The notes under the pieces were generated by a model. It searched no databases. It was given only the letters and a program-made list of their open reading frames with translations, and was not told the origin of the DNA. From a virus, in IMG/VR virus record IMGVR_UViG_3300045988_173304: 45,105 nucleotides of DNA. One strand, 5' to 3'. The number at the start of each line of letters is the position of its first letter. The stretch's first letter is position 1. This document shows, piece by piece, positions 25,347 to 25,401 of the stretch. A program made the translations under genes and the position numbers.

Positions 25347-25401
25347 ATTCCCCTGATGAGTCTTGGAAGATTAAGACGAAACGCCGTGAGGCGTCGGGAA
25401 T
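25347..25401 (+). ncRNA. Type I hammerhead self-cleaving ribozyme
   Basis: - Stem I: AUUCCC (25347-52) pairs with GGGAAU (25396-401).
- Core: CUGAUGA (25353-59).
- Stem II: GUCUU/AAGAC (25360-64 / 25373-77) with an 8-nt loop.
- Core: GAAA (25378-81).
- Stem III: CGCC/GGCG (25382-85 / 25390-93) with a GUGA tetraloop.
- Cleavage site: U25394, C25395 (C17).

All invariant core positions are present. Confidence 0.85.

What the first reader, a model, noticed from the sequence alone, without database searches (positions are those of the whole stretch)
25347..25401. Complete type I hammerhead ribozyme in the gap between two accessory genes
Directly after the stop codon of ORF 25065-25346 the + strand reads 5'-AUUCCC CUGAUGA GUCUU GGAAGAUU AAGAC GAAA CGCC GUGA GGCG UC GGGAAU-3'.

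This folds as follows:
- Stem I: 6 bp, 25347-52 with 25396-401, open.
- Core: C3-A9 CUGAUGA.
- Stem II: 5 bp beginning with the G10.1-C11.1 pair, 8-nt loop.
- Core: G12 A13 A14.
- Stem III: A15.1-U16.1 plus a 4-bp stem closed by a GNRA (GUGA) tetraloop.
- Cleavage site: C17 at 25395.

Every invariant hammerhead nucleotide is present and all three helices are perfectly Watson-Crick.

Cleavage would cut the bicistronic mRNA 30 nt upstream of the DUF2786-like gene start (25426). That gene's SD would stay intact on a 5'-OH fragment, uncoupling the stability and translation of the two cistrons. Hammerheads are known from phage and metagenomic sequences, but their role there is unresolved. The ORF track cannot show this element.
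Basis: partly seen in the sequence, partly recalled or inferred. Interest (0 to 1): 0.8.

Follow-up and report, generated by a model that had tools for sequence, protein, structure and literature searches.

The report
Phage type I hammerhead ribozyme between genes
A genuine self-cleaving hammerhead RNA lies between two small genes of a gut phage and most likely cuts their shared messenger RNA in two, but it is one ordinary member of a large class of phage hammerheads known since 2011.

Summary
Window 25347-25401 (+) has every conserved hammerhead nucleotide, three perfect helices and an open stem I, which makes it type I. It cuts after C25395.

It is not chance:
- A structure-aware scan found it once in the window and never in 400 shuffles.
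- Rfam Hammerhead_1 gives 33.4 bits, 0.6 below the curated cut-off of 34 (E 1e-4), so standard annotation misses it.
- A model built from 14 relatives, without the window, scores it 68.5 bits (E 5e-19).

More than 120 phage-contig loci carry the same core and stem II with freely covarying stems I and III: 94% of cells paired, and 14 of 17 pairs with compensatory changes. Two related phages keep a hammerhead before the same DUF2786 gene with compensatory changes.

Family members typically abut an upstream stop codon and lie 28-45 nt before the next start codon. Flanking genes are small and unrelated.

The best reading is protein-independent intercistronic mRNA processing, as already proposed for prophage hammerheads.

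Modest additions:
- A conserved AA flank 5' of stem I.
- A significantly enriched hairpin at the 5' end of the 3' product.
- Patch-wise exchange of the ribozyme interior between near-identical phages.

It is a new member of a known kind.

The parts
24982..25010 (+). Promoter-like site TGTACA-17 nt-TATAAT with a TG extended -10. It is the likely start of the transcript that carries the ribozyme.
   Evidence: Consensus scan and sequence. The same motif recurs five more times in 22.6-26.3 kb. Function is inferred, not shown.
25065..25346 (+). Upstream cistron of 93 aa with no Pfam or PHROG match. Its TAA stop directly abuts stem I.
   Evidence: It is conserved in L139.
25345..25346 (+). The AA immediately 5' of stem I, which are also the last two bases of the stop codon. 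They are a family-wide conserved unpaired flank and a candidate partner of loop II.
   Evidence: In 76 cluster representatives, position -1 is A in 74 and position -2 is A in 68. The tertiary role is inferred.
25347..25352 (+). Stem I, 5' strand (AUUCCC).
   Evidence: All 6 stem I pairs show compensatory changes in the family.
25353..25359 (+). Catalytic core C3-A9 (CUGAUGA).
   Evidence: It is invariant except N7 in 76 representatives.
25360..25377 (+). Stem-loop II: GUCUU/AAGAC with loop GGAAGAUU. This is the minority loop variant of the family.
   Evidence: The loop variant is found at 25 of 148 sites. The exact 29-mer occurs in 22 viral contigs and 11 bacterial genome contigs.
25378..25380 (+). 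Catalytic core G12 A13 A14.
25381..25394 (+). Stem III: A15.1-U16.1 plus CGCC/GGCG, closed by a GUGA tetraloop.
   Evidence: Five of 6 modelled pairs have compensatory changes. It is replaced by CACUCUC-GAAA-GAGAGUG in the 96.7%-identical phage L139.
25395..25396 (+). Cleavage site. The cut falls 3' of C17 (25395) and leaves a 2',3'-cyclic phosphate on C25395 and a 5'-OH on G25396.
   Evidence: The position follows from the hammerhead consensus. H17 is C in 70 of 76 relatives. The chemistry comes from established hammerhead knowledge and was not tested.
25396..25401 (+). Stem I, 3' strand (GGGAAU).
25396..25408 (+). Alternative hairpin GGGA-auaac-UCCC, formed by the stem I 3' strand and a downstream complement. 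It sits at the very 5' end of the 3' cleavage product.
   Evidence: Predicted at -5.5 kcal/mol with pairing probability about 1 in the product. It is also present in the MFE fold of the uncleaved context. Such hairpins occur in 31 of 76 family representatives against 21% +/- 4% in permutations, with 0 of 5000 reaching the observed value.
25412..25417 (+). Shine-Dalgarno sequence AAGAGG of the downstream gene, 8 nt before the AUG.
   Evidence: Sequence. Predicted unpaired (0.9) in the 3' product.
25426..26064 (+). Downstream cistron of 212 aa: DUF2786 plus DUF7168, phrog_421, function unknown.
   Evidence: Relatives in L139 and L140 also have a hammerhead directly upstream.

Best explanation
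Window 25347-25401 encodes an active type I hammerhead ribozyme in the 79-nt gap between two co-oriented small genes of a temperate phage, probably of a gut Clostridia-like host.

Proposed sequence of events:
1. The operon is transcribed from the promoter-like site at 24982-25010.
2. The ribozyme folds as soon as its last strand emerges.
3. It cuts itself after C25395 without any host nuclease.
4. The upstream cistron ends up with a compact structured 3' end (stems II and III) and a 2',3'-cyclic phosphate.
5. The DUF2786 cistron becomes a separate mRNA that starts with a 5'-OH, 30 nt before its AUG.
6. The freed stem I strand GGGA refolds with UCCC (25405-08) into a 5'-terminal hairpin, while the SD and AUG stay open.

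The element therefore acts as a portable, gene-independent intercistronic processing site or insulator. It uncouples the stability and translation of neighbouring cistrons. The refolding hairpin probably makes cleavage irreversible and may protect the new 5' end.

Shown here: the motif, its statistical significance, covariation, syntenic conservation and the stereotyped position between ORFs.

Inferred: cleavage in vivo, the fates of the two products and the role of the hairpin.
For: Motif and significance:
- establish the motif and its significance.
- One search gives 68.5 bits, E 5e-19, with a model trained without the window.

Family and covariation:
- The exact core plus stem II occurs in 22 IMG/VR contigs.
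- In an alignment of 122 hits, 94% of cells are paired against 69% in shuffles.
- In that alignment 14 of 17 pairs have compensatory changes, and 415 doubly changed cells compare with 107 +/- 9 in shuffles.
- Slid controls give 31-49% paired.

Synteny:
- L139 is 96.7% identical over 5.5 kb. It keeps the ribozyme with loop II changed and stem III wholly replaced, yet still fully paired.
- L140 (76% amino-acid identity in DUF2786) has a hammerhead with a different stem I before the same gene, behind a different upstream gene.

Position:
- In 76 representatives, a same-strand ORF stops within -4 to +9 nt of the ribozyme in 43 of 58 cases. The commonest gap is 0.
- The next SD plus start codon lies a median of 42 nt after the cut, most often 28-45 nt. 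The window has 0 and 30.

Gene independence:
- The 53 downstream proteins are small (median about 95 aa) and unrelated. Only 2 are DUF2786.

Interchangeable ribozymes:
- In L027 two such hammerheads and a Pistol ribozyme each separate small ORFs.

Product hairpin.

Literature:
- Bacterial hammerheads of all types lie near integrases in prophages and flank genes.
- They cleave in about 2-kb polycistronic transcripts in vitro, and in E. coli for the Agrobacterium example (PMC3088659).
- A mouse-gut hammerhead has the same stem I (AUCCC/GGGAU) and AAUAA flank, and the stem III of L065. It cleaves at 0.3 per min in 0.3 mM Mg2+ (PMC7151607).
Against: - No cleavage data exist for this sequence.
- The Rfam score is 0.6 bits below the curated cut-off.
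- In a 97-nt context the thermodynamic model prefers a fold without stem I by about 2 kcal/mol (-22.5 against -20.6). In that fold the GGGA/UCCC hairpin forms and CCCCU pairs with the SD, so some transcripts may not cleave. The model ignores tertiary contacts and co-transcriptional order.
- The window's loop II (GGAAGAUU) is the minority variant. It does not fit the U-GNRA-A-UU pattern of the majority.
- The product hairpin is found in only about 41% of family representatives, so it is not obligatory.
- Transcription of the two genes as one RNA is inferred from consensus scans only.
- More distant DUF2786 relatives (L141, L142) lack the ribozyme, so the gene does not need it.
Confidence: 0.7

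Rival explanations
1. The ribozyme is a conditional switch rather than a constitutive cutter. The downstream complement UCCC competes with the 5' strand for GGGA, and a ribosome terminating at the abutting stop codon would cover that 5' strand. Cleavage, and so separate expression of the DUF2786 gene, would then depend on folding kinetics or on translation of the upstream ORF.
For: - The alternative fold is predicted to be about 2 kcal/mol more stable than the active fold in context. In it the SD is paired with CCCCU.
- The downstream complement is significantly enriched in the family.
- The stop codon abuts stem I in most family members.
Against: - The active fold is complete before UCCC is transcribed.
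- Natural hammerheads with tertiary contacts cleave fast (PMC3088659, PMC7151607).
- Only about 41% of relatives have the hairpin.
- The energy model ignores the tertiary contact.
- No ligand- or protein-binding element is evident.
Confidence: 0.15
2. The element persists mainly as a selfish or recombinogenic DNA cassette. The roughly 29-nt core plus stem II is identical in unrelated phages of several bacterial phyla and provides micro-homology for exchange of gene modules. RNA cleavage would be tolerated rather than useful to the flanking genes.
For: - In a blastn of 3.7 kb against 50,697 phage records, the only match was the ribozyme itself, in Agathobaculum phages.
- The identical 29-mer occurs in Bacteroidaceae, Clostridia, Negativicutes and Erysipelotrichales contigs.
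- Homology between the window and L139 begins right after a second hammerhead that L139 has and the window lacks.
- Differences between the window and L139 are concentrated inside the ribozyme. The window's stem III equals that of L139's other hammerhead.
Against: - Massive compensatory covariation in stems I and III, and invariance of the catalytic core, show selection on the RNA fold and not just on DNA identity.
- The fixed strand and position relative to ORFs point to an RNA-level role.
- The recombination evidence is anecdotal, resting on one pair of phages.
Confidence: 0.1
3. It is a chance or decayed hammerhead-like sequence with no activity.
For: The Rfam score is below the gathering cut-off. 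The shuffle z-score of the isolated fold is only -2.4.
Against: - 0 of 400 shuffles give such a motif.
- The family model gives E 5e-19.
- All core nucleotides are intact.
- Syntenic relatives keep the fold through many compensatory changes.
Confidence: 0.03

Closest known systems
Hammerhead ribozyme, type I (Rfam RF00163, clan CL00010)
   Same: The full consensus core, three helices, open stem I, a GUC cleavage triplet and a full-length match to the model over positions 1-45.
   Different: - It scores 33.4 against a gathering score of 34.
- Stems II and III are longer than in the model.
- None of the 22 or more relatives in 20 test loci is called at the gathering score.
- The Agathobaculum phage copy is not even listed at E <= 1.
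- This phage subfamily is therefore effectively invisible to routine Rfam annotation.
Prophage and phage hammerheads flanking genes (Perreault et al. 2011, PMC3088659)
   Same: An intergenic position in a temperate phage, close to an integrase gene (26589-27629). The flanking genes are small and variable, and relatives form arrays of 2-3 ribozymes about 400 nt apart (L041, L060, L072, L073, L090, L127). The proposed role of cutting long phage transcripts into gene-length mRNAs is the same.
   Different: There is a single copy in this window. The subfamily has a fixed stem-loop II, a 5-6 bp stem I and an AA flank, rather than the pseudoknot emphasised in that paper.
Mouse-gut metagenome hammerhead assayed by Naghdi et al. 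2020 (PMC7151607)
   Same: The AAUAA flank, stem I AUCCC/GGGAU, an open stem I, and a stem III identical to that of family member L065. It is experimentally fast-cleaving.
   Different: Its stem II is different and forms a pseudoknot with the tails. The window's own sequence has not been assayed.
RAGATH-1 hammerhead variant (Rfam RF03152)
   Same: A weak resemblance in the A-rich tract before a short stem I and in the CUUGG string after GAG.
   Different: It scores 22.3 against a gathering score of 56.3, and the upstream hairpin of that family is not matched. The window's element is not a member.
RiboJ synthetic insulator (sTRSV hammerhead plus a 23-nt hairpin; PMC6206723)
   Same: It works alike. 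A hammerhead upstream of an RBS removes the upstream RNA and leaves a hairpin at the new 5' end with the RBS exposed. RiboJ raises mRNA and protein levels.
   Different: RiboJ is engineered, is derived from a type III satellite-RNA ribozyme, and carries an added hairpin. Here the hairpin reuses the ribozyme's own stem I strand. There is no evolutionary relation.
RNase III intercistronic processing sites of phage T7 early mRNA (own knowledge, not checked here)
   Same: A polycistronic phage transcript is cut between cistrons, leaving structured ends that stabilise the pieces.
   Different: The T7 sites need the host enzyme RNase III. The hammerhead is self-sufficient and leaves 2',3'-cyclic phosphate and 5'-OH ends.
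Peach latent mosaic viroid hammerhead (type III)
   Same: A nearly identical stem-loop II, GUCUU-UGAGAU-AAGAC (sequence quoted from Rfam in PMC6980424), against GUCUU-UGAGAAUU-AAGAC in many family members.
   Different: It has type III topology, belongs to a viroid replicon and works in rolling-circle processing. The similarity may be convergent.

Membership tests
Hammerhead ribozyme (type I) | Conserved core: C3 U4 G5 A6 N7 G8 A9, G12 A13 A14, the A15.1-U16.1 pair, and H17 (not G) at the cleavage site. | tested here: met
   CUGAUGA at 25353-59, GAA at 25378-80, A25381-U25394 and C25395.
Hammerhead ribozyme (type I) | Three helices around the core, with stem II beginning with the G10.1-C11.1 pair. 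| tested here: met
   The MFE and centroid fold of the 55-mer. Covariation in 111 distinct relatives supports all three helices, with 94% of cells paired and 14 of 17 pairs compensatory.
Hammerhead ribozyme (type I) | Topology: stem I open, stems II and III closed by loops. | tested here: met
   The full-length match is to RF00163 and not to the type II or III models.
Hammerhead ribozyme (type I) | Rfam RF00163 gathering score of 34 bits. This is an operational annotation cut-off, not a biochemical definition. | tested here: not met
   33.4 bits, E 1.2e-4 over the window. This is a shortfall of 0.6 bits. The family-specific model gives 68.5 bits.
Hammerhead ribozyme (type I) | A tertiary contact between loop II and stem I, which gives fast cleavage at physiological Mg2+. 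| not testable with these tools
   The evidence is indirect only. Stem I is fixed at 5-6 bp, the 5' AA flank is conserved (74/76 and 68/76), the +1 position is A or G, and loop II is conserved. No association was found between loop variant and flank.
Hammerhead ribozyme (type I) | Mg2+-dependent site-specific self-cleavage giving 2',3'-cyclic phosphate and 5'-OH ends. | not testable with these tools
   This needs in vitro transcription or end-specific RNA-seq. A related mouse-gut ribozyme is active (PMC7151607).
Phage/prophage intercistronic hammerheads (Perreault 2011) | Located in phage or prophage DNA, in an intergenic position, on the strand of the flanking genes, and often near an integrase. 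| tested here: met
   The window has a terminase, an integrase at 26589-27629 and co-oriented flanking ORFs.
RAGATH-1 hammerhead (RF03152) | A match to the family model, including the conserved upstream hairpin. | tested here: not met
   22.3 bits against a gathering score of 56.3. The upstream hairpin aligns only through a 32-nt insertion.

The most novel reading that the evidence does not exclude
This abundant phage subfamily may be a natural counterpart of the engineered RiboJ insulator. It is defined by a fixed stem-loop II, a 5-6 bp stem I and an AA flank, and it is largely missed by Rfam.

The ribozyme is placed at a fixed distance between a stop codon and the next SD. After cutting, its own stem I 3' strand snaps onto a downstream complement. 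That would trap the product, so that no religation occurs. It would also cap the new 5'-OH end of the downstream mRNA with a hairpin that shields it from 5' exonucleases.

In addition, the conserved core may serve as a hot spot where phages swap ribozyme interiors and adjacent gene modules.
Probability: 0.3. Interest if true: 0.55.

Novelty: new member of a known kind. Interest (0 to 1): 0.3.

Why it matters
The biological role of small self-cleaving ribozymes in bacteria and phages is still described as unclear (PMC3088659, PMC7151607).

This locus adds no new kind of element. It is, however, a clean and simple test case: one ribozyme, one promoter-like site and two small cistrons.

The family-level regularities found here give concrete hypotheses that can be tested by mutation:
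- The stop codon abuts stem I.
- The next start codon lies about 30-45 nt after the cut.
- The flanking genes are unrelated.
- A Pistol ribozyme can occupy the equivalent position.
- A 5'-terminal product hairpin is enriched.

There is also a practical point. Routine Rfam annotation at gathering thresholds misses this whole subfamily, so phage genome annotations under-report ribozymes.

Tried and rejected
- **Rfam at gathering thresholds.** No hit in the window. The element appears only with E-value reporting.
- **Sequence-only core pattern.** Not informative, with 16 hits against 18.5 expected. It was replaced by a structure-aware scan.
- **Other RNAs in the window.** No other ribozyme or tRNA was found. 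A weak family-model hit at 30879-30929 (13.5 bits) has a broken core (CUGUUGA) and was dismissed.
- **Whole-locus homology search.** A blastn of 24000-27700 against the phage collection matched nothing but the ribozyme.
- **Pseudoknot idea.** I considered pairing between loop II (GGAA) and the downstream UCC/UUCC. I rejected it because the downstream complement changes with stem I from locus to locus while loop II stays constant.
- **Target-site-duplication idea.** I considered that the downstream complement might be a DNA direct repeat of the 5' strand. This is unlikely. In L114/L053, L008 and L122 the two copies differ by changes that keep pairing with the 3' strand through G-U or G-C. A mirror-image control upstream also shows no enrichment.
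- **Loop II variant against flanks.** No association with flanking bases, stem I length or N7.
- **Preferred partner gene.** None found. 53 downstream proteins hit 29 PHROG families, nearly all once.
- **First MAFFT alignment (A1).** It misplaced gaps in stem III. It was replaced by an ungapped seed (A2) plus a model-based alignment (A3).
- **Intrinsic terminator reading of stem III.** Rejected, because no U-run follows it.
- **Exact stem-loop II strings in the paper library.** Only a viroid example turned up.

Full report
**1. The observation**

The + strand at 25344-25428 reads:

TAA | AUUCCC | CUGAUGA | GUCUU GGAAGAUU AAGAC | GAA | A CGCC GUGA GGCG U | C | GGGAAU | AAC UCCC AGAAAGAGGUAUUUAAG AUG.

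- The stop codon of ORF 25065-25346 abuts stem I.
- The cleavage triplet is the canonical GUC, with C17 at 25395.
- The ATG of the next gene, at 25426, lies 30 nt after the first base of the 3' product.
- The isolated 55-mer folds into exactly this three-way junction as both MFE and centroid (-18.3 kcal/mol, z = -2.4).

**2. Is it more than chance?**

- A pattern using only the core sequence is uninformative: 16 hits against 18.5 expected.
- A scan that also demands the three helices finds this one site on either strand. It finds none in 400 dinucleotide-preserving shuffles of the 45-kb window.
- Rfam's type I model (RF00163) aligns it end to end at 33.4 bits. The E-value is 1.2e-4 for the whole window and 4e-7 for 151 nt.
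- The curated gathering score is 34, so the default search reports nothing.
- No other Rfam ribozyme and no tRNA is present in the window.

**3. Relatives**

A blastn of 3.7 kb around the site against 50,697 phage records matched only the ribozyme itself. The hits were in Agathobaculum phages AB434P2 and AB434P3. There the sequence sits between two small ORFs and differs by compensatory changes:
- Stem I is AAUCCC/GGGAUU.
- Stem III is UCCCC-GAAA-GGGGA.

Wider scans gave many more copies.
- An exact scan of IMG/VR for the core plus stem-loop II found 22 contigs.
These hold 148 sites, of which 102 are distinct type I ribozymes.
- The exact window variant also occurs in genome contigs of Bacteroidaceae, Clostridia, Phascolarctobacterium, Erysipelotrichales, Blautia and Floccifex.

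I built a covariance model from 14 of these sequences, without the window.
- It scores the window at 68.5 bits, E 4.7e-19.
- It finds 122 hits in 100 sources.

On that alignment:
- 94.0% of pair cells are standard pairs, against 68.7% in shuffles and 31-49% when partners are slid.
- 14 of 17 pairs show changes on both sides.
- 415 cells are doubly changed, against 107 +/- 9 in shuffles.

Stems I and III carry almost all of the variation. Stem II is nearly fixed, partly because the scans selected for it. The alignment is fitted to the model, which favours the structure somewhat. My independent parse of the raw sequences shows the same picture.

**4. Syntenic relatives**

The downstream protein carries DUF2786 and DUF7168 and belongs to phrog_421. 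It has four relatives in IMG/VR.

- **L139** is 96.7% identical to window 23020-28563 and has the ribozyme at the same place. Between 25077 and 25800 the two phages differ at only 4 positions outside the ribozyme region. Inside that region they differ at 3 positions in loop II, over the whole of stem III, and at 3 positions in the SD-AUG spacer. Stem III changes from CGCC-GUGA-GGCG to CACUCUC-GAAA-GAGAGUG and remains fully paired.
- **L140** has 76% protein identity. It also has a hammerhead directly before the gene, with another stem I (UCUCC/GGAGA) and a different upstream gene.
- **L141 and L142** have 34% identity. They carry a plain GC hairpin there instead.

L139 has a second hammerhead whose stem III equals that of the window's ribozyme. 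Homology between L139 and the window begins immediately after it, and the window has no ribozyme at that spot. Ribozyme interiors therefore seem to be exchanged between copies, and a ribozyme can mark a mosaic junction. This rests on one pair of genomes only.

**5. Family anatomy**

I reduced the family to 76 cluster representatives.
- Stem I is 5 bp in 38 and 6 bp in 35.
- The two bases before stem I are A in 74 and 68 of 76. The base before those is U or A, so a TAA stop is frequent but not required.
- The base after stem I is A (55) or G (15).
- H17 is C in 70.

Loop II is UGAAAAUU at 85 sites, GGAAGAUU (the window's variant) at 25 sites, and UGAGAAUU at 21 sites.
- 121 of 148 sites fit U-GNRA-A followed by two variable bases, usually UU.
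- The window's variant does not fit this pattern.

A fixed short stem I, unpaired A's at its end and a conserved loop II are what one expects of the loop II-stem I tertiary contact of natural hammerheads. That contact cannot be tested here. Loop variants show no association with the flanks.

**6. Genomic setting of the family**

- A same-strand ORF of at least 40 aa ends within 120 nt upstream in 58 of 76 representatives. In 43 of those it ends within -4 to +9 nt of the ribozyme, most often at 0.
- An SD plus start codon follows in 53 of 76, at a median of 42 nt from the cut and mostly at 28-45 nt.
- The flanking ORFs are small, with medians of about 90-95 aa.
- The 53 downstream proteins are unrelated. 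Only two are DUF2786, and the rest are scattered regulators and ORFans.
- Several contigs carry 2-3 copies about 400 nt apart.
- On the minus strand of L027 the order is hammerhead, ORF, hammerhead, ORF, Pistol ribozyme.
- Type II hammerheads occur next to the type I copies in L003 and L087.

What is selected is therefore an RNA cut between cistrons. It is not a partnership with a particular gene or a particular ribozyme class.

**7. The window's transcription unit**

- A promoter-like site with an extended -10 (TGTACA-17-TGgTATAAT) lies at 24982-25010.
- The same motif recurs at 22604, 23929 and 26278 on the + strand, and at 24946 and 23845 on the - strand.
- Terminator-like hairpins lie at 24709-24733 and 26499-26522. 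None lies between the promoter and the ribozyme.
- The region between the tail genes and the integrase (26589-27629, - strand) thus looks like a set of short accessory operons.
- The large terminase is closest to a human faecal phage (72.7%) and to Butyrivibrio phages (48%). This suggests a gut Clostridia host, which is an inference.

**8. Mechanism**

From established hammerhead chemistry, cleavage leaves two products.
- The upstream cistron ends in stems II and III with a 2',3'-cyclic phosphate.
- The downstream cistron begins with 5'-OH-GGGAAUAACUCCC.

In the 3' product, GGGA pairs with UCCC (25405-08). The hairpin is predicted at -5.5 kcal/mol with pairing probability about 1. The SD GAGG (25414-17) and the AUG are about 90% unpaired.

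This downstream complement of the stem I 3' strand is a family feature.
- A hairpin of at least 4 bp that starts within the first three nucleotides of the product occurs in 31 of 76 representatives.
- The permutation null swaps the stem I strand between loci. It gives 21% +/- 4%, and 0 of 5000 permutations reach the observed value.
- The mirror-image control upstream shows nothing: 9% observed against 15% expected.
- The mean MFE of the product's first nucleotides is -2.69 kcal/mol, against -1.24 in permutations (z = -10.8).
- In L114/L053, L008 and L122 the downstream copy differs from the 5' strand by changes that keep pairing. This argues for RNA pairing rather than a DNA repeat.

I read this as a product trap that makes cleavage irreversible, and as a 5'-terminal hairpin of the kind known to stabilise bacterial mRNAs. 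The engineered insulator RiboJ is a hammerhead plus a hairpin before the RBS. It behaves this way and raises expression (PMC6206723).

The same complement also competes with stem I before cleavage. In a 97-nt context the fold without stem I is predicted to be 1.9 kcal/mol more stable, and it pairs CCCCU with the SD. A switch-like or partial cleavage is therefore a live alternative.

**9. Comparison with what is known**

Perreault et al. (PMC3088659) reported the following:
- Hundreds of bacterial hammerheads of types I, II and III exist.
- Many lie near integrase genes in prophages and flank single genes whose identity varies.
- They are active in about 2-kb polycistronic transcripts.
- The suggested role is processing long phage RNAs into gene-length mRNAs.
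- The function is stated to be unclear, and this is repeated in PMC7151607.

A mouse-gut hammerhead assayed in PMC7151607 shares the AAUAA flank, stem I AUCCC/GGGAU and the stem III of family member L065. It cleaves at 0.3 per min in 0.3 mM Mg2+.

The window's element meets every structural criterion of a type I hammerhead and the contextual pattern of the prophage class. It misses only Rfam's operational cut-off, by 0.6 bits. It is not a RAGATH-1 hammerhead (22.3 against 56.3 bits).

Rfam at gathering thresholds called none of the 22 or more family members in 20 test loci. It did not list the Agathobaculum copy even at E <= 1. The subfamily is therefore under-annotated, though not conceptually new.

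**10. Verdict**

This is a real type I hammerhead ribozyme, very probably active, at a stereotyped intercistronic position in a temperate gut phage.

It is, however, a new member of a well-known kind, and the functional reading is the standard untested one.

The points beyond the literature I could check are the conserved AA flank, the enriched 5'-terminal product hairpin, and the patch-wise exchange of ribozyme interiors between near-identical phages. They are modest and need experiments.

Interest is 0.3.

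Noticed in passing
window 22604-22632, 23929-23957, 24982-25010, 26278-26306 (+); 24946-24918, 23845-23817 (-): Six copies of a promoter-like motif TGTACA-17 nt-TATAAT. 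The + strand copies at 22604 and 24982 have a TG extended -10. They share a longer similar stretch, roughly TACAACAATTGTGGTATAATAA. The copies at 24946 (-) and 24982 (+) are back to back. The motif looks like a reused promoter/operator cassette driving short accessory operons between the tail genes and the integrase.
   Followed up: partly
L139 15-73 and 2414-2478, against window 23020 and 25347-25401: The 96.7%-identical phage L139 has a second hammerhead, just before the MTVAE... gene, which the window lacks. Homology with the window starts right after it. Its stem III (CGCC-GUGA-GGCG) is the one found in the window's only hammerhead, whereas L139's syntenic copy has a different stem III and loop II. 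This suggests exchange of ribozyme interiors between copies, and ribozymes lying at mosaic junctions.
   Followed up: partly
L027 minus strand: 1961-1899, 1578-1514, 1054-984: Two type I hammerheads and a Pistol ribozyme (47.7 bits, above the gathering score) each separate small ORFs in one array. L003 (1727-1795) and L087 (34-103) carry Rfam-called type II hammerheads near the type I copies. Different ribozyme classes thus occupy equivalent intercistronic positions.
   Followed up: partly
L141 about 2440-2470 and L142 about 825-855 (just upstream of the DUF2786 homologue): Distant relatives of the DUF2786 gene (34% identity) have a GC-rich hairpin, GGGAGGGGC-cua-GCCCCUCCC, directly before the SD where the window has the hammerhead. 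It may be a protein-independent 5' or 3' stabiliser filling the same slot.
   Followed up: no
window 22278-22514 (-) and 22112-22309 (-): A small ORF matches the ParE toxin family (PF05016, 26.2 bits against a cut-off of 23). It overlaps the start of a 65-aa ORF on the same strand with no family match. This may be a toxin-antitoxin pair in the accessory region.
   Followed up: partly
window 25335-25431, predicted alternative fold: In the uncleaved RNA the predicted MFE fold pairs the stem I 5' strand and C3-U4 (CCCCU) and the preceding UAAAU with the SD region (AG..GG..AUUUA) of the DUF2786 gene. Cleavage could therefore also unmask the ribosome-binding site. This is a thermodynamic prediction only.
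   Followed up: no
family loop II (e.g. L025, L031, L033; window 25365-25372): Stem-loop II of the family, GUCUU-UGAGAAUU-AAGAC, is almost the same as that of the peach latent mosaic viroid type III hammerhead, GUCUU-UGAGAU-AAGAC. 121 of 148 sites fit U-GNRA-A followed by two variable bases, usually UU. The window's GGAAGAUU variant (25 sites) does not fit.
   Followed up: partly
window 25015-25076: The 5' UTR just downstream of the promoter-like site is a second patch of dense differences between the window and L139: 23 differences in about 60 nt, against about 3% overall.
   Followed up: no
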